This document shows, in pieces, positions 10,527-44,631 of a DNA stretch of 64,000 nucleotides. The stretch is from an uncultured Actinomyces sp. Its GTDB lineage: Bacteria > Actinomycetota > Actinomycetes > S36-B12. The DNA is taken from the NCBI GenBank assembly GCA_964537955.1, contig CAZICY010000004.1, positions 9,316 through 73,315 of the forward strand. The letters run 5' to 3'. Each line of letters begins with the position of its first letter. The stretch's first letter is position 1. The notes beneath the pieces are model-generated. The model did no database searches, was not told the DNA's origin, and saw only the letters and a list, made by a program, of their open reading frames with translations. Position numbers and translations under genes: made by a program.

Positions 10527-10527
10527 C

Positions 10528-12249: not shown

Positions 12250-12279
12250 GCTAGGCATCCACTGATGTGGATGCCTAGC
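12250..12279 (+). terminator. Perfect 13-bp-stem hairpin (GCTAGGCATCCAC-tgat-GTGGATGCCTAGC)
   Basis: Perfect inverted repeat with a 4-nt loop, 65 nt downstream of the acidic lipoprotein stop. It has no U-tract, which is common for actinobacterial terminators. Confidence 0.5.
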
Positions 12280-12298
12280 GTCGCGTCCGGGGGTTGTC

Positions 12299-13012: not shown

Positions 13013-13031
13013 GGAGTGGCAGGATGCGGGC

Positions 13032-13250
<219 letters not shown>

Positions 13251-13253
13251 GGC

Positions 13254-14843: not shown

Positions 14844-14844
14844 G

Positions 14845-26513: not shown

Positions 26514-26616
26514 GCAGACACGGTAGGTAGCCCGACGTGAACCCAGCCCCTGTGCGCGGTCGCACTTCGGTCATCGCTCGGTCATAGCCGAGTGACTGGT
26601 GAGCGTGGTGCACCGC

Positions 26617-29374: not shown

Positions 29375-29971
29375 CTAAGCATCTGCGGACGAGATGTCCG
29401 CGAGGACGGGACTGGCTCCTTCGGGCCTCCCTTCGCCGGATAGGTGGGTGCCGACCTGTCGTCGGCCCAGCGCGAAGAGGGCGAGCGCCATGACGTTGGC
29501 GCCCACAAGGAGTGTCACCGCGAGCCGCTGGGCGTCGGCTGACGCGAGGTACGCGAGCGGCGAGCCGATCGCAGGGATGCGCCAGATCACGCGAGGCAAC
29601 TCGTGCGTGGCAGAGACCAGGACCGGGTCGGTGTCGAGCTGGGCGTTTGCGTCGCCCTTGGTGGTGAAGCGGTTGAGGCCGTTGAGGACCCTGGACTCGA
29701 CGACTCGATGAGCGACGGTCGCGCCTGCCGCCTCGACCACGATGACGTCGCCCACGCTGACGGTGCCCGCACTCGAGATCTTGGTCACGATGAGATCCCC
29801 CGCATCAATCGCGGGCGTCATGCTTCCTGTCAGGACGGTCGTAACGCCGATTCCCCATGACGCGCGCGCGACCGTGGGCATGAGGAGCAGCACGAGCGTT
29901 GCTACCGCCATGAGGATGAGCGGCCATCGTTGTCGCGCGGCTCTTGTCTCGGGCGCAGCCATGCCGGACAT
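29375..29971 (-). CDS. Signal peptidase I, archaeal/ER-type (S26B, SipW-like)
   Basis: VLTGSMTPAIDAGDLIVTK…VGDVIVV…TVAHRVV…FTTKGDANAQLDTDPV aligns block by block with B. subtilis SipW (SGSMEP…GSLILVK…GDVITF…VTHRIV…KTKGDNN). ATG 29971 is chosen; 29962 and 30046 are alternatives. Confidence 0.75.
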   Translation of the reverse strand: MSGMAAPETRAARQRWPLILMAVATLVLLLMPTVARASWGIGVTTVLTGSMTPAIDAGDLIVTKISSAGTVSVGDVIVVEAAGATVAHRVVESRVLNGLNRFTTKGDANAQLDTDPVLVSATHELPRVIWRIPAIGSPLAYLASADAQRLAVTLLVGANVMALALFALGRRQVGTHLSGEGRPEGASPVLADISSADA

Positions 29972-30254
29972 GCTAGGAATCGTTGCGACGAATTCACCCG
30001 TGAGAGAAGTCAACGAATGGGCTGTTGAACGCCGACGACCAGTCATGGTCAGTCGTTGTGACCGGGCACGGGCGGATGATTGCCCACGAGAGGCTTGGGG
30101 GAACCCGGTGGCCTGGGCCGGTTTCGAGTCGCCGAACTTCCGAGGGTGAGGACGAACCAGAGTGTCTTCAGGGTGCGTCCCCATCCTTTGGGGCTCATCG
30201 ATCCCGTGCGGGGGGCGCGGACCCGGATTTGTCAGCCGGGGAGACGCCTGCTAG

Positions 30255-30352
30255 TTTCCTCTCCAACATCAAGAGCGACTGAGAGACCTGGCTCGCTGAA
30301 GTCGCAGCAACCCCTCGGGGTGCTAATGCCAGGACCGATGTGGAGGAAACAT
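30255..30352 (+). promoter_or_regulatory. SAM riboswitch, SAM-I clan (S-box-like core; no obvious canonical P4)
   Basis: CUCCAACAUCAAGAG-CGACUGAGAGACCUGGCUCGCUGAAGUCGC-AGCAACC-CCCCUCGGGG-UGCUAAUGCCAGGACC-GAUGUGGAG. The P1 strands pair (one bulge). P2 has a k-turn-like UGAGAGA/UGAA. The AGCAACC junction is present. CCUGGC/GCCAGG have pseudoknot potential. Confidence 0.7.
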
Positions 30353-30529
30353 CATGAGGTCCATGCGCTCTGTTCCGCTCACGCGACGTCGGGTCGTCGA
30401 CCACATGCGCATGGACGGCTGCCTCTGTCCCTGGATGCCGGGCCTCTAGGCCCTCCCTGCACGACCCCTTCAGGGCTCCTCCCACGAGAGGAGGCCCTCC
30501 GCATCCACGCACGCCACGAGAGGCTTCCC

Positions 30530-31315
30530 ATGACTGCCCCCCTCCCGGCCACCCTGCCGGCCACGAGCCGCACGGCTCAACCCGCCACGGTCGACGTCAC
30601 GGACGTGAGCAAGGAGTTCACGACGTCCAGCGGGCGCATCCCCGTCCTGCGCGACGTCTCGCTGCACATCGCGCCCGGTGAGACCGTCGCCCTGCTCGGC
30701 CCGAGTGGCTGCGGCAAGTCGACCCTGCTGCGTCTCATCGCAGGACTCGACACGCCGACCACCGGATCCGTCACCGTGGACGGTCAACTCGTCTCGGGTG
30801 TCGACACGCGCTGCTCGATCGTGTTCCAGGAGCCGCGACTGCTTCCGTGGAAGACCGTGGGGTCCAACGTCCGCCTAGGAGCTCGCGGCGGTGCCCACCA
30901 GGACGAGGTCGATGCCTGGCTCGAACTCGTCGGCCTCGATGGGTTCGCGTCCTACCTGCCCAAGCAGATCTCGGGCGGCATGGCGCAGCGCACCGCCTTG
31001 GCCAGGGCCCTCATCGGCCACCCGGGCGTGCTGCTCCTCGACGAGCCCTTCGCGGCGCTCGACGCGCTCACCCGACTGCAGATGCAGGACCTGCTCGCCC
31101 AGGTCACCGAGGCGCTCGGCACGACGGCCTTGCTCGTCACGCACGATGTCGACGAGGCCCTCTATCTCGCCGATCGCGTCATCGTGCTCGGCCAGCGTGC
31201 GGAGGGCATCGTCGACGTCGTCGATGTGCCCTTCGGTCACCCCCGCGATCGCGGAGATGCCCGCCTTGCCCCTCTGCGCGCCTCCCTGCTCCGGAGGTTC
31301 GGCATCCACACCTGA
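30530..31315 (+). CDS. ABC transporter ATP-binding protein, NitT/TauT (sulfonate/nitrate/taurine) family
   Basis: Start re-derived to ATG 30530. Walker A GPSGCGKST, signature ISGGMAQRTALARAL, Walker B LLLDEPFAALD. Confidence 0.85.
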   Translation: MTAPLPATLPATSRTAQPATVDVTDVSKEFTTSSGRIPVLRDVSLHIAPGETVALLGPSGCGKSTLLRLIAGLDTPTTGSVTVDGQLVSGVDTRCSIVFQEPRLLPWKTVGSNVRLGARGGAHQDEVDAWLELVGLDGFASYLPKQISGGMAQRTALARALIGHPGVLLLDEPFAALDALTRLQMQDLLAQVTEALGTTALLVTHDVDEALYLADRVIVLGQRAEGIVDVVDVPFGHPRDRGDARLAPLRASLLRRFGIHT

Positions 31316-31366
31316 CCCTTCCCACCCCCTAGCCGTCCCACTTCCCCTATCGACTTTGGAGTTCAC

Positions 31367-32377
31367 ATGTCCCATGCACGTCGCCAACCCCGTCTCGTCG
31401 CGGCGCTCTCACTCGCTGCCATCGCAGGCCTGACGCTCGCCGCCTGCGCTTCGGGCGAGGGAGGGTCCGCAGAGGATTCCTCCACCCTGTCCTTGGACTA
31501 CGCCTACTACAACCCCCTGAGCCTCGTCGTGCGCGACCAGGGATGCGTCGAGGCGGCAGTCGCCGACCAGGGCACCACCGTGGAGTGGATCCTGTCGACC
31601 GGCAGCAACAAGGCCAACGAGAACCTCAACGCCGGCGTGCTCGACATCGGCTCCACGTCAGGAGCGGCCGCTCTCGCTGCACGGGCCAACGGCGGTGCCA
31701 TCAAGACGATTGGCGTCTTCTCGCAGCCCGACTGGGCAGCCATCGTCGTCCCTGCCGACTCGACCATCACCGACGTCGCGGGCCTCAAGGGAACCAAGGT
31801 CGCCGCCACGAAGGGCACCGATCCCTACTTCTTCCTCCTGCAGGCGCTCAATGAGGCAGGGCTGAGCCAGACCGACGTGGAGATCATCAACCTCCAGCAC
31901 GCTGATGGCCAGGCAGCTCTGGTGCGCGGAGACGTCCAGGCATGGGCCGGCCTCGACCCCATCACCGCGCAGGCGGAGGCCAACGACGGCGTGAAACTGA
32001 TCTACCGCAACATCGACTTCGCTTCGTACGGCGTGCTCAACGCCCGCGAGGCCTTCCTCGAGTCATCGCCGGAACTGGTCGAGACAGTCCTCGGCTGCTA
32101 CGAGCAGGCACGCGCCTGGATCAAGGCCAACCCCGACGAGGCAGCGGCGCTCCTCGCCAAGGAAGCATCCCTCGATCCGGAGGTCGCCCGCGTGGTGCTC
32201 ACCGAGCGCACGGTGACCGACATCTCGATCGTGCCCGCCGACGCGCAGCGTCAGGTGCTCGAGAGGATCCTGCCGATCCTCGTCGCCGAGGGCCAGGTCC
32301 GCTCCGAGGAAGAGGTGCGCGCGGCACTCGACAGCCTCTACGCACCCGAGATCGCCCAGAAGGTCGCCTCGTCATGA
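31367..32377 (+). CDS. ABC transporter substrate-binding lipoprotein, SsuA/NMT1-like
   Basis: Signal …LAAIAGLTLAAC (lipobox). Its size and position between the ATPase and permease genes fit the NitT/TauT family. Confidence 0.75.
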   Translation: MSHARRQPRLVAALSLAAIAGLTLAACASGEGGSAEDSSTLSLDYAYYNPLSLVVRDQGCVEAAVADQGTTVEWILSTGSNKANENLNAGVLDIGSTSGAAALAARANGGAIKTIGVFSQPDWAAIVVPADSTITDVAGLKGTKVAATKGTDPYFFLLQALNEAGLSQTDVEIINLQHADGQAALVRGDVQAWAGLDPITAQAEANDGVKLIYRNIDFASYGVLNAREAFLESSPELVETVLGCYEQARAWIKANPDEAAALLAKEASLDPEVARVVLTERTVTDISIVPADAQRQVLERILPILVAEGQVRSEEEVRAALDSLYAPEIAQKVASS

Positions 32378-33222
32378 CGACACACGCGCCGACGCCGCCC
32401 CGTGTCGAGCCCCGCAAGGGGCTCGACACGGACGAGGCGACTCCCTCGGGCTCGTCCCGGGAGAGTCGCCTCGCCTCGCGTCTCGGCAATGCCGCGCTCG
32501 GGCTCATCGTCCCGGCCGGGCTGCTCCTGCTGTGGATCACGCTCGCGGCGAACGGCTCCTTCTCGAGCAGCCAGCTCCCCTCCCCGGGAGAGGTTCTCGC
32601 GGGACTCGTCGAGCTCATCGAGCGCGGCACCTTCTGGACGCATGTCGCCATCACGATCCAGCGGGTCCTGCTCGGTTTCGCGGCGGGCGCGACGCTCGGC
32701 ATCATCGTCGGTTCGCTCGTGGGGCTTTCCCCGTGGGCGAGTCGTCTCTTCGCCCCGACCATCCATGCGATTCGCGCGGTGCCATCGCTGGCCTGGGTGC
32801 CCGTGCTCGTGCTGTGGCTCGGGATCTACGAGGGCCCCAAGGTGACGCTGGTGGCGATCGGTGCGTTCTTCCCCGTCTTCACGACCGTTGCCGCGGGCTT
32901 CCAGCACGCTGACCGCAGGCTCATCGAGGTGGGTCGCGCGTACGGCCTGCGCGGGTTCAAGCTCGCCACCCAGGTGATCCTGCCGTCGGCTGCGCCGACG
33001 ATCTTCTCCGGCCTCAGGCTCGGCCTCGCGCAGAGCTGGCTCTTCGTCGTCGCCGCCGAGCTCATCGCGAGCTCCAAGGGGCTCGGCTTCCTGCTCATCG
33101 ACTCTCAGAACACGCTGCGCACCGACATCCTCCTGCTATCGATCATCCTGCTTGCCCTTCTCGGCAAGACCACGGACTTCCTCCTATCCCTCATCGAACG
33201 GAGAGTGCTCCGATGGACCTGA
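32374..33222 (+). CDS. ABC transporter permease, SsuC/TauC-like
   Basis: ATGA overlap with the SBP gene. It has 6 TM helices and a BPD-transporter EAA-like loop (…ADRRLIEVGRAYGLRGFKLATQVILPSAAP). Confidence 0.8.
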   Translation: MTTHAPTPPRVEPRKGLDTDEATPSGSSRESRLASRLGNAALGLIVPAGLLLLWITLAANGSFSSSQLPSPGEVLAGLVELIERGTFWTHVAITIQRVLLGFAAGATLGIIVGSLVGLSPWASRLFAPTIHAIRAVPSLAWVPVLVLWLGIYEGPKVTLVAIGAFFPVFTTVAAGFQHADRRLIEVGRAYGLRGFKLATQVILPSAAPTIFSGLRLGLAQSWLFVVAAELIASSKGLGFLLIDSQNTLRTDILLLSIILLALLGKTTDFLLSLIERRVLRWT

Positions 33223-33247
33223 TCGCCTTCGGACGAAGGGCAGCGAC

Positions 33248-34543
33248 GTGAGCGACCGCGAGTGGGGCTTCCGCACGCGCGCCCTGCATGCGGGCGGTGC
33301 CCCCGACCCGACGACCGGCGCGCGTGCCGTGCCCATCTTCCAGACGACGAGCTTCGTCTTCGAGGACAGCGATGACGCGGCTGCGCTCTTCGCCCTCCAG
33401 AAGTACGGCAACATCTATTCGCGCATCGGCAATCCGACCGTGGCCGCCTTCGAGGAGCGCATCGCGTCCCTCGAGGGAGGGCTCGGCGCGGTGGCGACGG
33501 GCAGCGGCCAGGCCGCGGAGTTCCTCGTCTTCGCCGCCCTTGCCGGTGCAGGCGACCACATCGTGGCGTCCTCGTCGCTCTACGGCGGCACGGTGACCCA
33601 GCTCGCCGTCACCCTCCGTCGCTTCGGCGTGGAGACGACCTTCGTCTCCGGCGGGGATCCCGCGGACTTCGCCGCGGCGATCCGGGACAACACCAAGCTG
33701 GTCTTCGCCGAGGTGGTCGCCAACCCTTCCACCGATGTCGCCGACATCGCCGGGCTGGCTGACGTCGCACACGCGCATGGGGTCCCCCTCGTGGTGGATG
33801 CGACGACGGTCACCCCCTACCTCTGCCGCCCCATCGAGCATGGTGCCGACATCGTCGTCCACTCCGCGACGAAGTTCCTCGGAGGACACGGCACCGCACT
33901 CGGTGGCGTCATCGTGGACGCGGGTCGCTTCGACTGGGGAAGTGGTCGGTTCCCACACTTCACGGAGCCAGTCCCGACCTATGGCGACATCCGCTGGTGG
34001 GACAACTTCGGCGAGTACGCCTTCCTGACCAAGGTGCGCGTCGAGGATCTGCGCGACATCGGACCTGCCCTGTCGCCGTTCAATGCCTTCCTGCTCCTGC
34101 AAGGGGTCGAGACGCTCCCGCAGCGCATGCGCGAGCACGTCGCGAACGCTCGGCGCGTCGCCGAGTGGCTCGCGGAGGATCCCCGCGTGGCATGGGTGAG
34201 CTACTCCGGCCTGCCCGGGCATCGCGACCATGAGCGTGCCCGCACCTACACGCCCGAGGGTCCCGGCGCCGTCTTCTCCTTCGGCATCAAGGGAGGAGCC
34301 CCTGCCGCGGAGGCCTTCATCGGCAACGTCCGCCTGCTCAGTCACCTCGCCAACATCGGTGATGCCCGGAGCCTGGTGATCCATCCCGCCAGCACGACGC
34401 ACCGCCAACTCTCGCCGCAGCAGCTCGTGGAAGCAGGGGTGCCGGACGACCTCATCCGCCTGAGCATCGGGCTTGAGGACGTCGACGACATCCTGTGGGA
34501 CATCGACAGTGCGCTCACAGCGGCGACGGGAGTATCCCGATGA
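33248..34543 (+). CDS. metY: O-acetylhomoserine aminocarboxypropyltransferase (sulfhydrylase), PLP-dependent
   Basis: GTG 33248. FRTRALHAGGAPDPTTGARAVPIFQTTSFVF, YSRIGNPTVAAFEERIASLEGG and the PLP-lysine context VHSATKFLGGHG. Confidence 0.85.
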   Translation: MSDREWGFRTRALHAGGAPDPTTGARAVPIFQTTSFVFEDSDDAAALFALQKYGNIYSRIGNPTVAAFEERIASLEGGLGAVATGSGQAAEFLVFAALAGAGDHIVASSSLYGGTVTQLAVTLRRFGVETTFVSGGDPADFAAAIRDNTKLVFAEVVANPSTDVADIAGLADVAHAHGVPLVVDATTVTPYLCRPIEHGADIVVHSATKFLGGHGTALGGVIVDAGRFDWGSGRFPHFTEPVPTYGDIRWWDNFGEYAFLTKVRVEDLRDIGPALSPFNAFLLLQGVETLPQRMREHVANARRVAEWLAEDPRVAWVSYSGLPGHRDHERARTYTPEGPGAVFSFGIKGGAPAAEAFIGNVRLLSHLANIGDARSLVIHPASTTHRQLSPQQLVEAGVPDDLIRLSIGLEDVDDILWDIDSALTAATGVSR

Positions 34544-35031
34544 CCGGGTCGACCACCGCGTGGCAGCCTCCGTCCGCGCAGGAGCGCCTCGCACTCTTGC
34601 GACGGTCGCAGACCATCGCCATCGTCGGTGCCTCGGACAACCCGGCTCGCGCCAGCTTCTTCGTGGCGACGTACCTTCTGTCGAGCACCGACTTCACAGT
34701 GTGGTTCGTCAACCCGCGTGTCGAGACGATCTTGGGGCACCCGGTCTACTCCTCCCTCTCCGACCTGCCCGGCACACCGGACATCGTCGATGCCTTCAGG
34801 CGCCCGGACGACATGCCGACCGTCCTGGACGAGAGCCTGGAGGTAGGCGCAGGAGCACTGTGGATGCAGTTGGGCATCACGCACGAGGAGACCGCTCAGC
34901 GCGGCACCGAGGCGGGGATGGCCGTCGTCATGGACCGTTGCATCAAGATCGAGCACGCGCGCTTCCACCGAGGCCTGCACTACGCCGGCTTCAACACCGG
35001 AGTCATCTCGTCCCGTCGGCGACTACCGTGA
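34540..35031 (+). CDS. CoA-binding domain protein
   Basis: ATGA overlap with metY. TIAIVGASDNPARASFFVATYL…DIVDAFRRP…GAGALWMQLG is the CoA_binding_2 pattern. Confidence 0.7.
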   Translation: MTGSTTAWQPPSAQERLALLRRSQTIAIVGASDNPARASFFVATYLLSSTDFTVWFVNPRVETILGHPVYSSLSDLPGTPDIVDAFRRPDDMPTVLDESLEVGAGALWMQLGITHEETAQRGTEAGMAVVMDRCIKIEHARFHRGLHYAGFNTGVISSRRRLP

Positions 35032-35118
35032 TCGTGCGGCGCCTGACGATGTGCCGTCACATGGATCACGGATGAGTGTGCTCTGACCGGCCTCGGCGCC
35101 TGGAACCCGGCCCTTTTC

Positions 35119-35156
35119 GGTGGCCAGGGGCGGGGTCGAACCGCCGACCTTCCGAT
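35119..35156 (-). repeat. Orphan copy of the 3' 36 nt of tRNA-Phe (+2 nt flank); att-like direct repeat
   Basis: ggtggccaggggcggggtcgaaccgccgaccttccgat is identical over 38/38 nt to 38753-38790 and in the same orientation. The sequence diverges immediately after the T-arm/variable region, so this is not a complete tRNA. Confidence 0.9.
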
Positions 35157-35227
35157 GTGCAGTTCACTTCCTGACGCACCCACAATGCATCGGTTCCTGA
35201 TCCGGAAGGCACGTGGCCTTTCAGCTA

Positions 35228-35698
35228 CTAGTGGCGACGTTCCCAGGCTCCGGGCGACTCGAGCAGTCCGTTGATCGGGGTGGGGAGGTCGCCTGATGCG
35301 AGGTCCTCGAGAGATACGTGTTCGAGGACCTCGCGTATGGCAGCGCGCGTGGCGATCCATACCTCGCGAAGGTGCACGGAGTTGCCTGAGTAGTGCACTT
35401 CCTCCGGGGGTCCCCCGCGGACCGCGGCAAGCGGTCCGTCCAGCGCCCGGATCACGTCCGCGACGCTCACCTGGCTCGGCGGCTGGGCCAGGCGGAACCC
35501 GCCATCCGCTCCGCGCTGGCTGGCGACGATGCCGGCCTGCTTGAGTCCTCGCAGGATGTTCTCGAGGAATTTCGAGGGGATCTCCTGCTCGCGGGCGATC
35601 GTCTCGGACTTCACCAGCCGGTGTGGATCGTCGTCGTAGGCGGCGGTGAGTTCCATGAGTGCCTTCATGGCGTACTCCACTCGCGCCGAGATGTGCAT
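35228..35698 (-). CDS. Rrf2-family transcriptional regulator (CymR/IscR-like)
   Basis: MHISARVEYAMKALMELT…ETIAREQEIPSKFLENILRGLKQAGIVASQRGADGGFRLA is the Rrf2 wHTH. The alternative GTG start at 35767 would overlap the upstream stop. Confidence 0.8.
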   Translation of the reverse strand: MHISARVEYAMKALMELTAAYDDDPHRLVKSETIAREQEIPSKFLENILRGLKQAGIVASQRGADGGFRLAQPPSQVSVADVIRALDGPLAAVRGGPPEEVHYSGNSVHLREVWIATRAAIREVLEHVSLEDLASGDLPTPINGLLESPGAWERRH

Positions 35699-35763
35699 GG
35701 TGCCATTGAACCGCTGATGGATTCCCCGGTGCGAGGGGATCCGGCGATTCGGGTCGACGGGGG

Positions 35764-36609
35764 TCACGAGGAGGTGACCTCCAGGCCCCTTCGGCGACGC
35801 AGGGATCGGGCAAGCGAGGAGAAGAGCCCGTCGACGACCATGCCCAGGATGAGGATGACCAGCATCGTTGCGAGGAGAGTTGCCGACTGCGAGAACTGCC
35901 GGGCGAACTCGAGCTGGGCGCCGAGGGACGGCCGCTCGGCAATGATCACGAGGAGCTCACCGGCCATGAGGCTGCGCCACGCGAAGGCCCAGCCCTGGGT
36001 GAGCCCGGACACATAGGTGGGGAGCGCAGCGGGCAGCACGACGTCGCGGTAGAGGGACACGGGTCCGGCACCGAGCACCCGGCCCAGCCGGGTGAACGCG
36101 GGCGGCACGTTGTCGATGCCCGTGATGACGCCATTGGCGATGCTCGGAGCCGCGCCGAGAATGACGACGAAGAGGATCGCTTGCTCATTGAGTCCGAAGA
36201 CCAAAATCGCGAAGGGAAACCACGCGATCGACGGCATGGTCTGCAGGCCCGTGATGAGGCTGCCGACGGCGAGGCGCAGCGGCGTGATGCGTGCGACGAG
36301 GATCCCGATGATGGTGCCGATCACGAGCGCGAGGGAAAATCCCGTGATGGCACGGATGACCGTCGTGCCCATCGCCGACCAGAACCGCTCGGTCTGGATC
36401 ATCTCCCCGAGCTGGGCGAGCGTGGTCGCGGGCGAGGGGAAGACGTACTCGGGTCGCCAGCCGCTCCAGTAGACGATCTGCCACACGGCGAGCACGAGCA
36501 CGACGGCGAGCGCCTTGGGCCAGATCCATGCCCACACGCGTGCACCCGTGCCGGCACCGGGGCGCAGCTTGGGTGCCTGCTCCACGTTGGGGGTGAGGAC
36601 GGTGCTCAC
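35764..36609 (-). CDS. ABC transporter permease, SsuC/TauC-like (second copy)
   Basis: 281 aa, 6 TM helices, with a BPD-transporter loop. It overlaps the ATPase gene by 4 nt. Confidence 0.8.
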   Translation of the reverse strand: MSTVLTPNVEQAPKLRPGAGTGARVWAWIWPKALAVVLVLAVWQIVYWSGWRPEYVFPSPATTLAQLGEMIQTERFWSAMGTTVIRAITGFSLALVIGTIIGILVARITPLRLAVGSLITGLQTMPSIAWFPFAILVFGLNEQAILFVVILGAAPSIANGVITGIDNVPPAFTRLGRVLGAGPVSLYRDVVLPAALPTYVSGLTQGWAFAWRSLMAGELLVIIAERPSLGAQLEFARQFSQSATLLATMLVILILGMVVDGLFSSLARSLRRRRGLEVTSS

Positions 36610-37391
36610 GAGTCGGCTCCTTCGAGATGGCTTCGGCCTGCCTTGAGGCGCACCGTGAGGTCAGCGGCCCGCTCGGCGACCCCGGTGGAGTCCATGAGCC
36701 GGGGATGGGGGAGGTCGATCTGCGTCTCGTAGACGATGCGGCCGGGTCGCGAGCCCATGAGGATGACACGATCCCCGAGTCGCACCGCCTCGCGCATGTT
36801 GTGGGTGACGAAGACGACCGTGAGGCCCTGTTCCTGGACGACCGCTTCGATCTCGTCGTGGAGGTGATCGCGTGTCATCGCGTCGAGGGCTCCAAGTGGC
36901 TCGTCCATGAGGACGATGGACGTGTCCTGCGCGAGGCAGCGTGCGAGTGCCACGCGCTGCTTCATACCGCCGGAGAGCTCGTGTGGGCGCTTGTCCTCCC
37001 AGCCCTCGAGTCGCACCACACGCAGGAGCTCGCGAGCACGCTCGCGCCGCTCGGCTCGTGGCACTCCGTGGAGCTTGAGTGCCAGTTCGACATTCCGCTG
37101 AGCCGTGAGCCAGGGCAGGAGGGTCGCTTCCTGGAACATCAGTGCCGGCTTGTCGGCCGTCCAGATGGTGCCGGAGGTCGGTGCGTCGAGCCCGGCGAAG
37201 AGGTTGAGCAGGGTGGACTTGCCGCATCCGGATGCGCCTACGACCGTGACGAACTCCCCGGCCTTGATGTCGAGATCGACGCCGTCCAGCGCGACGGTCG
37301 CGTCCGCACCGCTGCCGAAGACCTTGCTGACGTCAGCGGCGCGGAGCGCGATTCCGTGCGTGGTGGGGGCGTCGACAGCCGCCGCGCTCAT
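36606..37391 (-). CDS. ABC transporter ATP-binding protein, NitT/TauT family (second copy)
   Basis: Walker A GASGCGKST, signature LSGGMKQRVALARCL, Walker B VLMDEPLGALD. Confidence 0.85.
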   Translation of the reverse strand: MSAAAVDAPTTHGIALRAADVSKVFGSGADATVALDGVDLDIKAGEFVTVVGASGCGKSTLLNLFAGLDAPTSGTIWTADKPALMFQEATLLPWLTAQRNVELALKLHGVPRAERRERARELLRVVRLEGWEDKRPHELSGGMKQRVALARCLAQDTSIVLMDEPLGALDAMTRDHLHDEIEAVVQEQGLTVVFVTHNMREAVRLGDRVILMGSRPGRIVYETQIDLPHPRLMDSTGVAERAADLTVRLKAGRSHLEGADS

Positions 37392-38473
37392 GCCTGCACG
37401 GCCGGCAGGCCGAGAGCCTTGAGCACCTCGTTGAGGATGGCCAGGTCGTAGAGATTGCCGGGGAGCCCACCGGCCGCCTCGAGGCCAGCCTGGTCGAGCA
37501 GGCCCACGGCGACGGCGTCCTCCGCGGACTTCACGAGGGTGCCCGTGAGGGGATCGATCGTGAAGGTCAGCTGGTCCCAGGCGCGGTCGAGGATCTCAGG
37601 CTTGGGAGAGCTGCCGGTGAGCGCGGCGAGTGCGAGAGAGAAGGACTCCTTTGCAGCGGCAGGGTCGGCCTCGATCGACTCGATGGCAGCCAGGTGCCCC
37701 TTGAGCAGCGCGGACACGGCCTCGGGGTGCTCGGCGATGAAGGCCGTGCGGCAGATGATGTGGGTGGTGACGAACTTGCCCTCGGGCCAGAGCGTCGCCT
37801 CATCGACGAGGATCTCCGCCCCTTGGGCGACGTACTCCGAGACCCACGGCTCCGGGACCCAGGCGCCGTCGATGTCGCCGGACGCGTAAGCGGCGAGGCC
37901 CTCGGCATTGGACTGCGGCTTGATGGAGACGTCACCGCCACCCTCGGGGGTCGTCTCGACACCCTTCTCCTTGAGCCAGTAGCGGAACGCCACGTCCTGG
38001 GTGTTGCCCAACTGCGGAGTGGCGAAGGACTTGCCCTTCATGGTCTCCACGTCGGTGATCCCGGGTCGCACGACGAGCGCTGCGCCGCCGGATGTCACAC
38101 CACTGACGACCCGGATCGCCTCGCCACCGGACTGGACGTAGGCGTTCACGGCGGGGTTGGGGCCGATGTAGGAGCAGTCGAGCGAGTCGGCGAAGAGCGC
38201 GGTCACCGCGTCGGGCCCGGCGTTGAAGACGGTCGGGGTGACGGTGAGGTCGACCTCCTTGAGCGCGTCCTTGAACAGGCCCTGCTGAGTGCCCACGAGG
38301 GCGGGGGCGTGGGTGAGGTTGGGGAAGTAGCCCAGGCGCAAGGTGGTGATGTCGGCGGGAGCGGCGCTCCCCGAGGCGGAGCCGGCGTCGTCGGCGGAGC
38401 CGGACGAGCAGGCGGCCAGGGCCAGGGTGGCGGCGGTGACGCCGAAGACGACGAGGGGACGCAGGTGGCGCAT
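37388..38473 (-). CDS. ABC transporter substrate-binding lipoprotein, NMT1/SsuA-like (second copy)
   Basis: Signal MRHLRPLVVFGVTAATLALAAC (lipobox). LRLGYFPNLTHAPALVG is typical of NMT1/SsuA binding proteins. Confidence 0.75.
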   Translation of the reverse strand: MRHLRPLVVFGVTAATLALAACSSGSADDAGSASGSAAPADITTLRLGYFPNLTHAPALVGTQQGLFKDALKEVDLTVTPTVFNAGPDAVTALFADSLDCSYIGPNPAVNAYVQSGGEAIRVVSGVTSGGAALVVRPGITDVETMKGKSFATPQLGNTQDVAFRYWLKEKGVETTPEGGGDVSIKPQSNAEGLAAYASGDIDGAWVPEPWVSEYVAQGAEILVDEATLWPEGKFVTTHIICRTAFIAEHPEAVSALLKGHLAAIESIEADPAAAKESFSLALAALTGSSPKPEILDRAWDQLTFTIDPLTGTLVKSAEDAVAVGLLDQAGLEAAGGLPGNLYDLAILNEVLKALGLPAVQA

Positions 38474-38510
38474 GAGGTGCCTTCCGTAGGGAGCAGGGCT
38501 TTCCCTACAA

Positions 38511-38541
38511 TGTCTATCAAGACACTAGGAATACCTGTCAA
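38511..38541 (-). promoter_or_regulatory. Candidate promoter (-35 TTGACA) overlapping palindrome TGTCT-N4-AGACA
   Basis: The minus strand reads TTGACAggtattcctagTGTCTtgatAGACAttg in the only AT-rich patch upstream of the SBP gene. It could be an operator for the co-encoded Rrf2 protein. Confidence 0.35.
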
Positions 38542-38630
38542 ATCCGTCCGATCGGCGTGTCGCGGAGGGTCACCGCGTGCCCATGAGAGACACAGATGGC
38601 CCACGGAAGCCGCTACATCGTTCGCCCTCG

Positions 38631-38679
38631 GACGCTGAACGCCGGTACTTGGCTAGCCCACTGACGCTGAACGCTGGTA
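38631..38679. repeat. Two 17-nt direct repeats gacgctgaacgc(c/t)ggta, 32 nt apart (start to start)
   Basis: 38631-38647 and 38663-38679 match at 16/17 positions. They lie in the non-coding stretch between the ABC operon and tRNA-Phe. Confidence 0.8.
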
Positions 38680-38754
38680 GCGCGGATCTCATCGAGCCCA
38701 GCCCCACGGCGAGAAATGGCCGGAAACACGGGGGACTTGGGGATTCCTGGAGGG

Positions 38755-38828
38755 TGGCCAGGGGCGGGGTCGAACCGCCGACCTTCCGATTTTCAGTCGG
38801 ACGCTCGTACCAACTGAGCTACCTGGCC
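38755..38828 (-). tRNA. tRNA-Phe (GAA)
   Basis: Reverse complement: GGCCAGGTAGCTCAGTTGGTACGAGCGTCCGACTGAAAATCGGAAGGTCGGCGGTTCGACCCCGCCCCTGGCCA. Cloverleaf arms pair, and the anticodon loop CTGAAAA gives GAA. Confidence 0.95.
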
Positions 38829-38867: not shown

Positions 38868-38944
38868 TGGCGACCCCGACGGGACTCGAACCCGCGACCT
38901 CCGCCGTGACAGGGCGGCGCGCTAACCAACTGCGCTACGGGGCC
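38868..38944 (-). tRNA. tRNA-Asp (GTC), CCA encoded
   Basis: Reverse complement: GGCCCCGTAGCGCAGTTGGTTAGCGCGCCGCCCTGTCACGGCGGAGGTCGCGGGTTCGAGTCCCGTCGGGGTCGCCA. The anticodon loop is CTGTCAC. Confidence 0.95.
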
Positions 38945-38962
38945 TCGGTGGTGCTGAGACCG

Positions 38963-39035
38963 TGTCCCCAACGGGATTCGAACCCGCGCTGCCGCCTTGA
39001 AAGGGCGGAGTCCTAGGCCGCTAGACGATGGGGAC
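38963..39035 (-). tRNA. tRNA-Glu (TTC)
   Basis: Reverse complement: GTCCCCATCGTCTAGCGGCCTAGGACTCCGCCCTTTCAAGGCGGCAGCGCGGGTTCGAATCCCGTTGGGGACA. The anticodon loop is CTTTCAA. Confidence 0.95.
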
Positions 39036-39428: not shown

Positions 39429-41393
39429 GTGCGCACCTACGGCCGCGTGGCCGCGACCCTCGCCGCCGTGCTGGCCCTTGTGGTCATGGGCGCTGCGGCG
39501 CCCGCAGGCACCGCGTCTGAGGAGTCAGCGCAACAGAGATCGTCCCTGCGCGTGGGCAGCGTCGACCTACGCCCGTGCGACGTGATGCGCGATGCCTACT
39601 GCGGTCGCATCGCGCGCGCGTGGGATCCGTCAGGGCGCGTGCCCGGCACTCTCACGGTCGGCTTCGCATGGATCCCCGCATCATCGGGCCGATCGATCGG
39701 CACGCTCGTCCCCCACGAGGGCGGCCCGGGCTACAGCACGACAGGCTCGGGCGAGTGGTTCGCCGAGATGTACGGCGATCTGATGACCGATCACGACATG
39801 CTCCTCGTGGACGCCCGCGGCATGGGGCGCACGGCGGTCATCGCCTGCGCCGCGCTCGACCAGGGCACGATGCCCTTTGTCCGCGCCGTCGGTGCGTGCG
39901 CGCGCTCGCTCGGTGACCGCGCGTACTCCTATGGCACCGAGGCATCCGCCGACGACCTGGCTGCCGTGCTCGACGCCCTCGAGATCGACAGGGTCGACAT
40001 GTACGGCGACTCCTACGGGACGTTCTTCGGCCAGGTCTTTGCCGGACGCCACCCCGATCGCCTGCGCACCCTCATCCTCGACGGTGCCTACCCGACCTAT
40101 GGCGAGTCCGCGTGGTACCCGACTCAGGGGCCGGCCCTGAGACGAGCACTCACCGCCCTCTGTGCGCGCAGTGCGCTCTGCGCGGCCGAACCCGGCATGC
40201 CGGTGCCGCTGCTGGAGCAGCTGCTCGAGCGCCTTCGCGCGAAGCCGATGCAGGTGCGCGCCCCCGGCGGCGACGGTCGCTGGCACCGGGTGATGCTTGA
40301 TCCGGAGGCTGTGGCCGCGGTCGCCTACAACGCCACCTATGTCTCCCCGACGTATCGTGAGTTCACCGCGGCGGTGCGCGCCGCACTCGAGGGGGACGCA
40401 CGACCGCTGGGCCGCCTCTTCGCTGAGTACTGGTGGACCGGCGACACGTCCAGCAACCCGCGCGAGTACAGCACCGGCGCGGAGGCCGCGGTCTCCTGCC
40501 ACGACTACCCGCAGCTCTTCGACCTGCGCCGATCCCGCGAGGCCCGGCAGCGGCAGTATCACGATGCGTTCGCGCGCAAGCAGGCTTCTCAGCCCGACCT
40601 CTACGGCCCCTTCACCATCCGCGAGTACAAGCGCTCGGGCTGGACCTCCTTCGGCATGTGCCTGGAGTGGCCCAAGCCTCCGGTCGGCGCGGATTTCGGG
40701 CCGCCCCGTCCGCCGGATGGTGGGTATCCGGCCGTGCCCACCCTCGTCCTCTCCGGCGAACTCGACACGATCACGACGGCGGCCGAGGGAGACATGGTCG
40801 CGGCCCGATTCCCGCGGTCCCGTCACATCGTGGTCGCCAACGGCCTGCACGTCGTCGGTGGTGCCGGGCCTGACACGTGCGGACCGCGGCTCGTGCGCCA
40901 CGTGGTGCGCACCGGTGGGCTCGACATCCCGAACTCTCTGGCCCAGTGTGCGGACACTGCTCCCATCATTCGTGCGGTCGGTACCTACCCGCGTGAGCTC
41001 GCCGCCGTCGAGTTCCCGGCCGGCGTCACGGACGACACCGTCGCGCGCCTGGCGGTGACGGCCGCTAACACTGCCGCGGACCTCATCGACCGGTGGTGGC
41101 AGGGCTACTCCGACACCGGCTACGGCCTGCGCGGGGGCGAGTGGCGTTACACGGGAGAGCGGCGCGTGCGCTTCGTGCTCGAGGGCGTGCGGCTCGTGCG
41201 CGATCTGCCGGTGAGCGGCACCTTCACGTGGGATCGCACGAGCGGAGCGGTATCGGTCGACCTGAGACTTCCCATCAGCAGTGGTGTCCGCGCGGTGACG
41301 GGATCGTGGAACGCCGACGCCATGGGTGCCCTGGCCACGCTCACGGTCACGGGTGCACTGGGACCGGCGACGATCGTCGTGCCGGCGCCCTAG
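39429..41393 (+). CDS. Secreted alpha/beta hydrolase, tripeptidyl-aminopeptidase (Tap)-like, second copy
   Basis: GTG start. Signal MRTYGRVAATLAAVLALVVMGAAAPAGTASE, HEGGPGYS oxyanion region, nucleophile elbow MYGDSYGT, and a long C-terminal extension. Confidence 0.7.
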   Translation: MRTYGRVAATLAAVLALVVMGAAAPAGTASEESAQQRSSLRVGSVDLRPCDVMRDAYCGRIARAWDPSGRVPGTLTVGFAWIPASSGRSIGTLVPHEGGPGYSTTGSGEWFAEMYGDLMTDHDMLLVDARGMGRTAVIACAALDQGTMPFVRAVGACARSLGDRAYSYGTEASADDLAAVLDALEIDRVDMYGDSYGTFFGQVFAGRHPDRLRTLILDGAYPTYGESAWYPTQGPALRRALTALCARSALCAAEPGMPVPLLEQLLERLRAKPMQVRAPGGDGRWHRVMLDPEAVAAVAYNATYVSPTYREFTAAVRAALEGDARPLGRLFAEYWWTGDTSSNPREYSTGAEAAVSCHDYPQLFDLRRSREARQRQYHDAFARKQASQPDLYGPFTIREYKRSGWTSFGMCLEWPKPPVGADFGPPRPPDGGYPAVPTLVLSGELDTITTAAEGDMVAARFPRSRHIVVANGLHVVGGAGPDTCGPRLVRHVVRTGGLDIPNSLAQCADTAPIIRAVGTYPRELAAVEFPAGVTDDTVARLAVTAANTAADLIDRWWQGYSDTGYGLRGGEWRYTGERRVRFVLEGVRLVRDLPVSGTFTWDRTSGAVSVDLRLPISSGVRAVTGSWNADAMGALATLTVTGALGPATIVVPAP

Positions 41394-42836: not shown

Positions 42837-43187
42837 GTGATCGAGGTCTCGCCCGCCGAGTTCGAGGAGCTCGTGGCCGAGGCCCTCGAGGCGGTGCCCG
42901 TCGAGCTCGCGCGCCTCATCGACAATGTCGTCTTCGTCATCGAGGCTGACGGGCCACCCGACGACCCCGACCTGCTCGGGCTCTACGAGGGCATCGCCCT
43001 CACGGAGCGGGATGCGACGTACGCCGGAGCCCTCCCCGATCGCATCACGATCTACCGCAACCCGACGCTGCGGATCTGCGACACCTATGAGGACGTCGTC
43101 GAAGAGGTCACCATCACCGTCGTGCACGAGATCGCCCACCACTTCGGCATCGATGACGAGCGCTTGCACGAGCTCGGCTACGACTGA
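42837..43187 (+). CDS. Zincin-like metallopeptidase family protein (DUF1025/Zincin_1)
   Basis: 116 aa, GTG start. It has the VVHEIAHHFG HExxH motif near the C-terminus, as is typical for this small family. Confidence 0.7.
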   Translation: MIEVSPAEFEELVAEALEAVPVELARLIDNVVFVIEADGPPDDPDLLGLYEGIALTERDATYAGALPDRITIYRNPTLRICDTYEDVVEEVTITVVHEIAHHFGIDDERLHELGYD

Positions 43188-43193
43188 GCGGCA

Positions 43194-43841
43194 CTACCTC
43201 GGCTTGACGGTGCCGTCCATGTAGACGGTGAGGATCTGCAGGCCACCCTGGCCGTCGTCGTAGTTGACGTACCAGCGCAGCTTGCCGAAGTCCGAAGCGG
43301 ACGTCGTGGCCTGCATGAGGTTCATTGCCGCGAGCGGCACGTCGGTGGGAAACCTGTCCGAGTTCTCCTCGCGGTAGTCCTCAGCCAGCTGGAGCGCGCG
43401 GTTGGCCCCGATGCGCAGTTTCTTGTCCACGCCGGTGCTGCCACCCCATCCCTCGTTGGACGTGATGACGCCGGTCTGGCACATGCCGTCGTACTTGATG
43501 AGCAGCGACATCCCTCGGTCGGCGCCACGGGCGGTGACGAGGTTGACGTTGAAGGCCACCTGATTGGCGGTCAGCGTGACCGCCTTGAGTGGATCCGTGT
43601 CGGCGGGGTCCCCCTCGAGGTCCACCTCCATCATCTTGGAGTCCTTCAGCTTCGCGCCCTTGCCGTAGTACTGCTCCGCAAGCTGGGGGATGTCGAGTTT
43701 GCGAAAGTCCTTCTGTGCCTTGGCCATGAGGGGACGGACGTTGCCTGACCACCCGCACAGGTCGTCAGCCGCCTGCGCGGAGACCGGGGCTGCCAAGAGC
43801 CCCGCGGACAGGGCCAACACCGCGACTGCGGACTTCCACAT
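43194..43841 (-). CDS. Secreted protein, unknown family (paralog A)
   Basis: Signal MWKSAVAVLALSAGLLAAPVSAQA. It shares the blocks CGW.G.V.PLM.KA, MEVDL, GSTG, MNLMQATT…DFGKLRWYVNY…LQIL.VYM.G.V.P with the adjacent gene. Confidence 0.6.
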   Translation of the reverse strand: MWKSAVAVLALSAGLLAAPVSAQAADDLCGWSGNVRPLMAKAQKDFRKLDIPQLAEQYYGKGAKLKDSKMMEVDLEGDPADTDPLKAVTLTANQVAFNVNLVTARGADRGMSLLIKYDGMCQTGVITSNEGWGGSTGVDKKLRIGANRALQLAEDYREENSDRFPTDVPLAAMNLMQATTSASDFGKLRWYVNYDDGQGGLQILTVYMDGTVKPR

Positions 43842-43857
43842 GGCGCCTCCTCATGAC

Positions 43858-43888
43858 GATGCCCCCGTGCGCTGAGCATGGGGGCATC
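43858..43888 (-). terminator. 9-bp-stem hairpin GATGCCCCC-N13-GGGGGCATC between the two paralogs
   Basis: Perfect inverted repeat located 23 nt downstream of the paralog-B stop codon on the minus strand. Confidence 0.45.
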
Positions 43889-43910
43889 GACGGGGTAAAT
43901 CAAGTACTGA

Positions 43911-44567
43911 CTACATGGGGGAGACCTTGCCGTTCATGTAGACAGCGAGGATCTGCAGCTCGCCCGGCGCTGGTGAGTAGTTGACGTACCAGCGCAGCTT
44001 GCCGAAGTCCGGCGGAGCGGTAGTCGCCTGCATGAGGTTCATCATGACCAGCGGCGCATCGAGCGGGAAGTCCGCCGAGTGCTTCTTGCGGTAGGCCTGA
44101 GCCAACTTAAGCGCCTCATTGGCGTTCACCGTGAGGGCCTGGTCGGTGCCCGTGCTGCCGACCCAGGCATCCTGGACGACGACCGTCGTCTTGTAGCACA
44201 GGCCATAGAAGCGCACCTGCGCACTGATCACGGACTCCTTGCCCCCGGACTTCACCATGATGTTGTAGGCAACCCGGTTGTTGCGCAGCGTGAGGGCCTT
44301 CGTGGGCTTCGTCTCTTCGCCCTTCTGCGCGAGGAGATCCACCTCCATGCGCTTGTACGACTTGATCTTGACGTTGTCGCCCATGCGGGCCTTGATCCGC
44401 TCGGTCACCTGCTCCGAGCGCACGCGACGATCGGCCTTCTGCATGAGCGGAATGACGTCTCCGGTCCAGCCGCAGGCGGCGCCCTGGTCGGCCTGCGCCG
44501 CGCTCACGGGCGACACGATGATGCCGGCAGCGAGGGCCAGCGCGGCGCCAATCGATACGAGTCTCAT
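43911..44567 (-). CDS. Secreted protein, unknown family (paralog B)
   Basis: Start re-derived to ATG 44567 (MRLVSIGAALALAAGIIVSPVSAAQA). It shares conserved blocks with 43194-43841. Confidence 0.6.
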   Translation of the reverse strand: MRLVSIGAALALAAGIIVSPVSAAQADQGAACGWTGDVIPLMQKADRRVRSEQVTERIKARMGDNVKIKSYKRMEVDLLAQKGEETKPTKALTLRNNRVAYNIMVKSGGKESVISAQVRFYGLCYKTTVVVQDAWVGSTGTDQALTVNANEALKLAQAYRKKHSADFPLDAPLVMMNLMQATTAPPDFGKLRWYVNYSPAPGELQILAVYMNGKVSPM

Positions 44568-44631
44568 GGGATCCCTTCCTCGGGGTGTTGGCCGCCATTG
44601 TGCACGCGGGGGCGCCCCGGGGGAAGGGAGT

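What the first reader, a model, noticed from the sequence alone, without database searches (positions are those of the whole stretch)
35119..38790. Perfect 38-bp direct repeat of the tRNA-Phe 3' end brackets a 3.6-kb integrase-less Rrf2 + ABC transporter cassette
ggtggccaggggcggggtcgaaccgccgaccttccgat occurs twice in the same orientation. One copy (38753-38790) is the genuine 3' part of tRNA-Phe. The other (35119-35156) is an orphan fragment just downstream of the metY/CoA-binding operon. This is the classic attL/attR footprint of site-specific integration into a tRNA 3' end. However, the enclosed DNA carries only an Rrf2 regulator and a NitT/TauT-type ABC transporter, with no integrase, excisionase or phage genes in any frame. 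So the cassette may be a decayed or mobilisable-in-trans islet. The same tRNA-Phe site may be a hotspot in relatives. The cargo duplicates the function of the riboswitch-controlled transporter immediately to the left, giving two paralogous sulfur-compound uptake systems with different regulatory logic side by side.
Basis: partly seen in the sequence, partly recalled or inferred. Interest (0 to 1): 0.65.

Follow-up and report, generated by a model that had tools for sequence, protein, structure and literature searches.

The report
Old integrase-less islets at tRNA-Phe
The repeat is real and is the scar of integrase-driven insertion into a tRNA-Phe gene, but it belongs to an old, decayed two-part array of sulfur-uptake operons at an insertion hot spot, which is an ordinary kind of structure and not a freshly mobile cassette.

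Summary
The 38-bp sequence occurs exactly twice, at 35119-35156 and 38753-38790. The second copy is the 3' part of tRNA-Phe. The four genes between the copies are an Rrf2 regulator and an SsuABC-like transporter, with no recombinase.

- **Real attachment sequence.** In three IMG/VR contigs the same fragment, without a full tRNA, lies 45-90 bp from a tyrosine integrase gene. In all 10 displaced copies found, identity starts at the anticodon loop and ends at the tRNA 3' end.
A decayed copy (33/44) lies at 30107-30150. The SAM-riboswitch/metY operon is therefore bracketed too. The window carries a tandem array: tRNA-Phe | cassette | fragment | metY operon | decayed fragment.
- **An active hot spot.** Relatives carry fragments at other positions, with unrelated DNA at the same fragment.
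- **No sign of recent mobility.** No empty site was found. GC and codon usage are native. The cassette-plus-fragment arrangement is shared by lineages 10-12% diverged. One relative holds the cassette and the metY operon in a single 14.8-kb fragment-bounded block.

Whether the cassette arrived as cargo or was resident and became bracketed is unresolved. The fragment is far better conserved than both of its flanks, and this is unexplained.

The parts
38753..38828 (-). tRNA-Phe(GAA) gene. Its 3' 38 nt (38753-38790) are the proximal copy of the repeat (attL-type junction).
   Evidence: ARAGORN; Rfam RF00005, 70.6 bits; exact repeat.
38868..39035 (-). tRNA-Asp and tRNA-Glu genes, upstream partners of tRNA-Phe in a three-tRNA cluster (context).
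38566..38752 (-). 187-bp stretch between the tRNA-Phe 3' end and the conserved cassette. Its first ~30 nt resemble the sequence after tRNA-Phe ends in relatives. The rest is variable.
   Evidence: Homology of all relatives to the window starts at 38562-38571. Flank comparison.
38474..38565 (-). Conserved 5' control region of the cassette, with a TTGACA box and the inverted repeat TGTCT-N4-AGACA (candidate Rrf2 operator; inference).
   Evidence: Alignment of 8 relatives from 5 different genomic contexts.
37388..38473 (-). Substrate-binding lipoprotein of the NitT/TauT (SsuA-like) family.
   Evidence: Pfam NMT1_2, 2e-34. NCBIfam SsuA_fam, 161.6 bits against a cut-off of 163.5.
36606..37391 (-). 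ABC ATPase (SsuB/SaoA-like).
   Evidence: Pfam ABC_tran; NCBIfam.
35764..36609 (-). ABC permease (SsuC/SaoP-like).
   Evidence: Pfam BPD_transp_1; NCBIfam.
35228..35698 (-). Rrf2-family regulator with no cysteine. CymR is its best named relative. The ORF is open up to 35767.
   Evidence: Pfam Rrf2, 2e-34. TIGR00738, 116 bits; CymR model, 90 bits, below its cut-off. Translation.
35157..35227 (-). 71-bp spacer between the Rrf2 stop codon and the orphan. It is shared with L081, L089 and L123. Its last 6 nt are a degenerate anticodon loop (CTGcAc).
35119..35156 (-). Orphan tRNA-Phe 3' fragment (fragment 2, attR-type junction), a 38/38 copy.
30151..35118 (+). Second bracketed segment. It contains a SAM riboswitch (30263-30344), an ssu-like ABC ATPase (~30500-31315), a binding protein (31367-32377), a permease (~32400-33222), metY O-acetylhomoserine sulfhydrylase (33152-34543) and a CoA-binding protein (34540-35031).
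   Evidence: Rfam RF00162, 55.8 bits; Pfam; NCBIfam. Bracketed by fragments 2 and 3.
30107..30150 (-). Decayed third tRNA-Phe 3' fragment (fragment 3): 33/44 identical, or 30/37 from TCGGA to GGCCACC. It is intergenic and positionally equivalent to fragment A of relative L124.
   Evidence: L124 fragment A. Intergenic status.

Best explanation
The 38-bp repeat is the displaced 3' part of tRNA-Phe, running from the anticodon loop to the 3' end. It was left when a tyrosine-integrase element recombined with the tRNA gene. The window holds a tandem array of two integrase-less segments downstream of tRNA-Phe. Segment 1 is a self-contained Rrf2 (CymR-like) plus SsuABC-like sulfonate-type uptake operon, closed by a perfect fragment. 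Segment 2 is the SAM-riboswitch ssu-like ABC + metY + CoA-binding operon, closed by a decayed fragment. Both segments are old and have native-like composition. By structure they are CIME-like remnants: att sites kept, recombination genes lost. No evidence shows that either is mobile today. The tRNA-Phe site itself is still a live insertion hot spot in this uncultured high-GC actinobacterial lineage.

Shown: the fragments, their boundaries, their link to integrases elsewhere, the array, the polymorphism in relatives, and the absence of an integrase.

Inferred: that integrase events made these particular junctions, and the order of those events.
For: - **Repeat and tRNA.** Confirmed.
- **Same fragment next to integrases.** The identical fragment (CTGAAAATCGG...GGCCA), not part of a full tRNA, lies 45-90 bp from tyrosine integrase genes in three IMG/VR contigs. 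Those integrases are 25-32% identical to actinobacteriophage tyrosine integrases.
- **Shared boundaries.** In the alignment of 13 copies, identity starts at the anticodon loop and ends at GGCCACC, and the flanks are unrelated. This is the anticodon-centred att class listed in Islander (PMC4383910).
- **Third fragment.** The decayed copy at 30107-30150 is far beyond chance.
- **Relative L124.** Fragments with 42/44 and 39/44 identity bracket a 14.8-kb block that holds both the cassette and the metY operon in the same order and orientation as the window.
- **Hot spot.**
  - L090 has a 970-bp gene-poor islet between two tRNA-Phe 3' ends upstream of the cassette.
  - L121 and L122 have perfect 45-nt orphans upstream of the cassette.
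  - L122 and L124 are 94% identical from the fragment inward and unrelated on its tRNA side.
- **Age.**
  - L081 and L089 (88-90% nucleotide identity) share the cassette, spacer and orphan.
  - L126 shares the orphan-to-CoA-binding junction.
- **Native composition.**
- **No recombinase.** None in the cassette. No tyrosine-recombinase box II motif in any frame of the 64-kb window. No recombinase domain in any of the 24 window ORFs put through Pfam.
Against: - No empty site and no circular junction was seen, so integration of this cassette was not observed directly.
- Relatives L088, L090, L082/L092 and L124 carry the cassette without the distal spacer and fragment. The cassette may therefore have sat next to tRNA-Phe before fragment 2 arose, which the simple cargo model does not predict.
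- L123 has the spacer but no fragment.
- The metY operon is a widely conserved operon in Actinomycetota and is not linked to tRNA-Phe elsewhere. That is unusual for island cargo.
- All relatives are short metagenome contigs. For L090 and L123 it cannot be proved that the tRNA end at the contig start is the real gene.
Confidence: 0.72

Rival explanations
1. The cassette is resident DNA that became bracketed and was never cargo. It already lay beside tRNA-Phe. Fragment 2 was introduced later on its far side, either by an element integrating into a secondary (pseudo-att) site after the Rrf2 gene or by recombination within the array. That element has since decayed or been replaced.
For: - Outgroup relatives have the cassette near tRNA-Phe fragments but lack the spacer and fragment 2 (L090, L124).
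- L124 has the cassette and the metY operon in one block with no fragment between them.
- L123 has the spacer ending about 5 nt before the point where the fragment starts in the window. This looks like an unoccupied or differently resolved site.
- The DNA beyond fragment 2 differs between the window and L081/L089 exactly from the fragment's outer end.
- The cassette has native composition.
Against: - It needs non-canonical secondary-site integration at an intergenic spot.
- No second junction of such an element is recognisable.
- The DNA beyond the fragment in the window is a conserved core-like operon, not element-like DNA.
- L123's downstream DNA is not found in the window.
Confidence: 0.3
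2. The cassette is a still-functional cis-mobilisable element. An integrase supplied in trans by a related element excises and reintegrates it through the two 38-bp repeats.
For: - The repeats are perfect, and both flanks are much less conserved. Mismatches are 0/38 in the fragment against 15/74 in the spacer between the window and L081 (P about 0.001), and 1/32 against about 16/87 on the other side in L126.
- The same cassette-plus-orphan sits next to different distal DNA in the window and in L081/L089.
- Integrase elements with this att sequence exist.
- The CIME concept and tandem accretion are documented (PMC5704250).
Against: - No empty site, no circle junction, and no integrase in 64 kb.
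- The anticodon-loop part of the orphan, the likely crossover region, has 2 mismatches in the window and 2 different ones in L081/L089. This should block strand exchange (inference from tyrosine-recombinase biology).
- The arrangement is old and the composition native.
- The cassette is absent from IMG/VR contigs.
Confidence: 0.12
3. The orphan comes from a local duplication of the tRNA-Phe gene. It would be a pseudo-tRNA whose 5' half decayed, with no integrase involved.
For: In L081 and L089 the spacer contains GAGCGTCCG. This 9-mer is identical to tRNA positions 22-30 and lies in roughly the right register (about 2% of shuffles reach this score).
Against: - The 5'-half similarity is not significant in the window (51% of shuffles reach it) or in L090.
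- All 10 orphans, at four or more different positions, start at the same anticodon-loop boundary as the integrase-adjacent fragments.
- Unrelated DNA abuts the same fragment in close relatives.
Confidence: 0.05

Closest known systems
Genomic islands integrated in tRNA genes, as mapped by Islander (regenerated tDNA plus displaced 3' fragment; anticodon-centred att class; tandem arrays). PMC4383910; Williams 2002, PMC100330, cited there.
   Same: An intact tRNA gene plus a directly repeated 3' fragment marks the far end. The identity block runs from the anticodon loop to the 3' end. Several fragments lie in series downstream of one tRNA gene.
   Different: Neither segment has an integrase gene, so Islander's own filter would reject both. 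The segments are very small (3.6 and 5 kb). They consist only of housekeeping-type sulfur uptake and assimilation operons with native composition.
CIMEs (cis-mobilizable elements) and tandem accretion, described for ICESt1/ICESt3 of Streptococcus thermophilus and others (review PMC5704250; Pavlovic 2004 and Bellanger 2011, cited there).
   Same: [quoted passage not shown] It lies in tandem with other att-bounded segments at one target gene. Newer elements are inserted at the same site in relatives.
   Different: Descent from an ICE or IME is not shown. No related intact element was seen in this lineage's contigs. The crossover-region part of the orphan is mutated. Mobilisation is untested.
Temperate actinobacteriophage tyrosine-integrase systems that target the 3' ends of tRNA genes. 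This point rests on the author's own knowledge, apart from the integrase similarity.
   Same: The IMG/VR contigs that carry this exact fragment encode tyrosine integrases 25-32% identical to those of Microbacterium, Arthrobacter, Mycobacterium and Gordonia phages. The integrase gene lies immediately beside the att fragment.
   Different: The window has no phage gene. No phage in the INPHARED collection carries this fragment.
Ssu/Tau-type sulfonate ABC importers and CymR-type (cluster-less) Rrf2 regulators of sulfur metabolism.
   Same: The binding protein, permease and ATPase score best with SsuA/SsuC/SsuB and Sao models. The Rrf2 protein has no cysteine and scores best with CymR. L124 adds TauD and a third such transporter beside it.
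   Different: All equivalog scores are below the curated cut-offs. Substrate and effector are unknown.

Membership tests
tRNA-integrated genomic island (Islander criteria) | Intact target tRNA gene plus a displaced fragment of the same gene in direct orientation on the same replicon. | tested here: met
tRNA-integrated genomic island (Islander criteria) | The fragment boundary lies at a canonical sublocation, either the anticodon loop or the T-stem. | tested here: met
   Identity begins in the anticodon loop in all 13 aligned copies. The class is listed in PMC4383910.
tRNA-integrated genomic island (Islander criteria) | An integrase gene lies inside the island. | tested here: not met
   The four genes are Rrf2 and ABC components. 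No box II motif occurs in six frames of the window.
tRNA-integrated genomic island (Islander criteria) | Presence/absence polymorphism exactly at the repeats. | tested here: inconclusive
   No empty site was found for the cassette. Replacement polymorphism at fragment edges was seen for neighbouring DNA.
CIME (cis-mobilizable element) | Flanked by attL and attR sites of an integrase system. | tested here: met
   The repeats are identical to fragments that lie next to integrase genes in IMG/VR contigs. Caveat: the loop part of the orphan has 2 mismatches.
CIME (cis-mobilizable element) | Lacks its own integration and transfer genes. | tested here: met
CIME (cis-mobilizable element) | Derived by decay from an ICE or IME. 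| tested here: inconclusive
   No related intact element carrying the cassette was found. Relatives show extra genes beside the cassette (DUF3800, MarR + 227 aa) but no mobility genes.
CIME (cis-mobilizable element) | Excised or mobilised in cis by a related element's integrase. | not testable with these tools
   Needs an experiment or read-level data.
Prophage remnant | Residual phage structural, replication or lysis genes. | tested here: not met
   Pfam results for all four genes. The cassette is absent from IMG/VR.
Aliphatic sulfonate ABC transporter (SsuABC) | Binding protein reaches the SsuA_fam (TIGR01728) cut-off. | tested here: inconclusive
   161.6 bits against a cut-off of 163.5. The riboswitch-linked paralog scores 210.3 bits.
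CymR (cysteine metabolism regulator) | Reaches the NF047409 equivalog cut-off. | tested here: not met
   90.5 bits against a cut-off of 195. The Rrf2 superfamily model is met: 116 bits against 73.

The most novel reading that the evidence does not exclude
The orphan tRNA-Phe fragments may be kept intact because they act as live landing and exchange sites. Under this reading, whole sulfur-assimilation operons (the Rrf2-ssu cassette, the riboswitch-metY operon, and the TauD module of L124) behave as integrase-less modules. Integrases supplied in trans would shuffle, swap or lose them within a tRNA-anchored array, a kind of operon-scale, integron-like system for core metabolism in uncultured actinobacteria.
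Probability: 0.1. Interest if true: 0.65.

Novelty: new member of a known kind. Interest (0 to 1): 0.35.

Why it matters
Displaced tRNA fragments can outlive the elements that made them. They can end up bracketing ordinary, native-looking metabolic operons, so that an attL/attR footprint with no integrase is not evidence of recent transfer. The locus also gives a concrete and testable case of an orphan att fragment that is conserved far better than both of its flanks. The possible causes are gene conversion from the tRNA gene, repeated integrase traffic, or selection. For annotation, it marks tRNA-Phe as an insertion hot spot in this lineage. It also identifies a compact, self-contained Rrf2-controlled sulfonate-type uptake module beside a riboswitch-controlled paralog.

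Tried and rejected
- **Reference genomes.** A scan of 185,579 species genomes with the CoA-binding protein returned 80 loci. The closest was only 82% identical. None had tRNA-Phe or the cassette nearby, so the scan gave no empty-site test.
- **Exact look-up of the window's binding protein.** Not on record.
- **JGI metagenome scan with Rrf2.** It gave only two close, short contigs, and neither had an orphan.
- **Orphan as a full pseudo-tRNA.** The 5'-half similarity is not significant in the window and is marginal in L081/L089, so this reading was rejected as the main explanation.
- **Decayed fragments at other junctions.** I tested L124 between the CoA-binding and carbonic-anhydrase genes, L124 TauD/Rrf2, L090, L088, L123, L081 before DUF4333, and window 38566-38752 and 26514-26640. 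None was found.
- **L123's tail as TauD or anything in the window or L124.** No match.
- **Integrases.** The box II motif scan returned only arginine-rich off-frame noise. Neighbouring ORFs are not recombinases.
- **Terminator or structured-RNA role for the orphan region.** The consensus scan found nothing there, and the fold z-score was -1.55.
- **Cassette in IMG/VR.** None.
- **Fragment in INPHARED phages.** No near match. The only distant matches were phage-borne full tRNA-Phe genes of Roseobacter phages.
- **Synteny of distant relatives around the metY operon.** Not conserved, so uninformative.
- **Failed scripts.** Two script calls returned no answer and were rerun.

Full report
**1. The observation**

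The 38-mer occurs exactly twice, at 35119-35156 and 38753-38790, in the same orientation. No further match exists with up to 3 mismatches, and none appeared in 100 shuffles. ARAGORN and Rfam both place tRNA-Phe(GAA) on the - strand at 38753-38828, next to tRNA-Asp and tRNA-Glu. The right-hand copy is therefore the 3' part of the gene, from the last base of the anticodon loop to the 3' end. The left-hand copy is an orphan 87 bp beyond the stop codon of the CoA-binding gene.

The DNA between the copies is filled by four - strand genes:
- a SsuA/NMT1-type binding lipoprotein
- an ABC ATPase
- a permease
- an Rrf2 regulator

None is a recombinase or a phage gene. The Rrf2 protein has no cysteine and scores best with CymR, below that model's cut-off.

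**2. Is the fragment an attachment sequence?**

An exact search of IMG/VR found the fragment in three viral contigs. In none is it part of a full tRNA. In each it lies 45-90 bp from a gene of about 480 codons with Phage_integrase domains. Those integrases are 25-32% identical to tyrosine integrases of Microbacterium, Arthrobacter, Mycobacterium and Gordonia phages.

I aligned 13 copies: the gene, the window's orphans, seven orphans from relatives and the three viral copies. Identity starts at the anticodon loop (CTGAAAA) and stops at GGCCACC, and the flanks on both sides are unrelated. This matches the principle used by Islander, in which a regenerated tRNA gene and its displaced fragment mark an island's ends, and it matches Islander's anticodon-centred att class (PMC4383910). 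The att reading of the repeat is therefore well supported.

**3. A third fragment and a tandem array**

A mismatch-tolerant scan found a third copy in the same orientation at 30107-30150. It is 33/44 identical overall, or 30/37 from TCGGA to GGCCACC. The next-best site in the window has 18 mismatches, 200 simulated windows never did better than 15, and 0 of 1000 shuffles reached its local-alignment score.

The copy is intergenic. The S26-like ORF next to it most likely starts at 29911, judged from its L090 homolog. The fragment lies 113 bp from the SAM riboswitch.

The window therefore reads, in tRNA sense:

tRNA-Phe | 187 bp | cassette | 71-bp spacer | fragment 2 (perfect) | CoA-binding, metY, ssu-like ABC, SAM riboswitch | fragment 3 (decayed) | S26-like gene.

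The riboswitch-metY operon is bracketed just as the cassette is.

**4. Relatives**

The organism is an uncultured high-GC actinobacterium. The nearest species genome is only 82% identical in the CoA-binding protein. None of the 80 genome loci links the widely conserved metY operon to tRNA-Phe or to the cassette. Closer relatives came from metagenome contigs found through the binding protein and the CoA-binding protein.

| Relative | Nucleotide identity to the window's cassette | Context, in tRNA sense |
|---|---|---|
| L081 / L089 | 89.7% / 88.0% | tRNA-Phe, cassette, same spacer, perfect orphan, then 3.7 kb of other genes, rejoining the window at DUF4333 (26467). Homology to the window stops exactly at the orphan's outer end. 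|
| L123 | 89.7% | Cassette and spacer, then no fragment. Homology ends about 5 nt before the fragment position. |
| L088 | 89.0% | Cassette with no fragment and unrelated neighbours. |
| L082 / L083 / L092 | 82.5-83.4% | Cassette with no fragment and unrelated neighbours. |
| L090 | 85.4% | tRNA-Phe 3' end, a 970-bp gene-poor islet, a 43/44 fragment, the cassette, then directly the S26-like gene. |
| L121 / L122 | 87.2% / 86.7% | Perfect 45-nt orphans upstream of the cassette, separated from it by DUF3800 (L121) or by MarR + a 227-aa gene (L122). |
| L124 (110-kb contig) | 85.5% | Fragment B (42/44), 227 aa, MarR, cassette, TauD, a third ssu/tau-like ABC system, AhpC, beta-carbonic anhydrase, the metY operon, fragment A (39/44). 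No fragment lies between the cassette and the metY operon. |
| L126-L128 | not applicable (99% CoA-binding protein) | Logan contigs that run from the metY operon into fragment 2 or stop beside it. |

L122 and L124 are 94% identical from fragment B inward and unrelated on its tRNA side.

**5. What this means**

The tRNA-Phe att site has been used repeatedly in this lineage. Fragments occur at four or more positions and at different stages of decay (0, 2, 2, 5 and 11 differences in 44). Different DNA abuts the same fragment in close relatives. That is a hot spot with tandem accretion and decay, as described for CIMEs and related arrays (PMC5704250).

Several points argue against recent acquisition of the window's cassette:
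- Its GC is 0.676, the 16th percentile of 3.6-kb windows. GC3 is 0.82-0.91, and its genes rank 13th to 33rd of 40 window genes by codon-usage distance from the other genes. All of this is native-like.
- Between the window and L124, the cassette and the metY operon are about equally diverged, at 85.5% and 83.8%.
- The cassette-plus-orphan junction is shared by lineages 10-12% apart.
- No empty site was seen.

The two transporters are ancient paralogs: 41% identity for the ATPases, 30% for the permeases and 27% for the binding proteins. The cassette is a sharply delimited unit. Its conserved 5' region (38474-38565, with TTGACA and TGTCT-N4-AGACA) and its end at the Rrf2 stop codon are the homology limits in five different contexts.

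**6. What stays open**

*Cargo or bracketed resident?* The canonical model says everything between the gene and a displaced fragment came in with an element. Several observations complicate this:
- Outgroup relatives have the cassette near tRNA-Phe without fragment 2.
- L124 has the cassette and the metY operon in one block.
- L123 has the spacer without the fragment.

Because att polarity fixes order and orientation, independent integrations could also give the same layout. I cannot decide between these with short contigs.

*Why is fragment 2 so well conserved?* The counts are as follows:

| Comparison | Mismatches in fragment | Mismatches in flank |
|---|---|---|
| Window vs L081 | 0/38 | 15/74 (Rrf2 stop codon + spacer); P about 0.001 that all fall outside the fragment |
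| Window vs L126 | 1/32 | about 16/87 (stretch toward the CoA-binding gene) |

The anticodon-loop part of the orphan has two substitutions in the window and two different ones in L081/L089. Gene conversion from the tRNA gene 3.6 kb away, repeated integrase traffic, independent origins or selection could each explain this.

If crossover is in the loop, as the fragment class suggests, the loop mismatches argue against present-day excision of the cassette. This is an inference.

**7. Verdict**

The repeat is real and is an integrase-type scar at a tRNA-Phe hot spot. The structure is a two-layer, old, integrase-less array that also includes the metY operon. Mobility of the cassette, whether recent or in trans, is not supported by any data obtained here. 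This is a new example of a well-known kind of structure, with one modestly interesting unexplained feature: the maintained orphan.

Noticed in passing
window 30263-30344 (+), and the operon to 35031: A SAM riboswitch (RF00162, 55.8 bits) heads an ssu-like ABC + metY + CoA-binding operon. The same gene order recurs in more than 50 genome loci from many Actinomycetota genera.
   Followed up: partly
window 29375-30184 (-): The first 91 codons of this ORF are probably spurious. Homology to the L090 gene start puts the true start of the S26-like peptidase gene at about 29911, which leaves fragment 3 intergenic.
   Followed up: yes
window 35228-35698 (-): The Rrf2 regulator has no cysteine, so it cannot bind an Fe-S cluster through the usual three Cys residues. 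CymR is its best named relative, at 90 bits, below that model's cut-off.
   Followed up: partly
window 38474-38565: The ~95-bp upstream region of the cassette has TTGACA and the inverted repeat TGTCT-N4-AGACA. It is conserved in all 8 relatives whatever the surrounding DNA, and is a candidate promoter plus Rrf2 operator.
   Followed up: partly
L124 10735-15743: In a relative, a 5.3-kb module lies between the metY operon and the cassette. It holds a beta-carbonic anhydrase, AhpC, a third ssu/tau-like ABC system and TauD. Together these make a 14.8-kb sulfur cluster bounded by two tRNA-Phe fragments.
   Followed up: partly
L090 31-1000 (same in L091): A 970-bp gene-poor, lower-GC islet lies between two tRNA-Phe 3' ends. 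It looks like the last remnant of another element.
   Followed up: partly
L083 743-1686: A MazE/PemK toxin-antitoxin pair and a PAS-domain gene lie directly upstream of the cassette in one relative. This is typical island content.
   Followed up: no
window 43000-44500 and 8000-16000: These stretches have lower GC (0.63-0.67) than the window mean of 0.70. The first holds ORFs without Pfam hits (43194-43841, 43911-44876).
   Followed up: no
L009 14008-15426: A homolog (42-48% amino-acid identity) of the window's alpha/beta hydrolase (39429-41393) lies 3.5 kb from the CoA-binding gene in a distant MAG. It is in the opposite orientation and has no tRNAs nearby. This may be a paralog or a trace of old linkage.
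   Followed up: no
window 38750-38756; L089 50-56: The tRNA-Phe gene encodes ...GGCCACC(C) in the window and ...GGCCACA in L089, so the CCA end is not fully encoded. The base after the discriminator-C is where copies of the fragment first differ.
   Followed up: no
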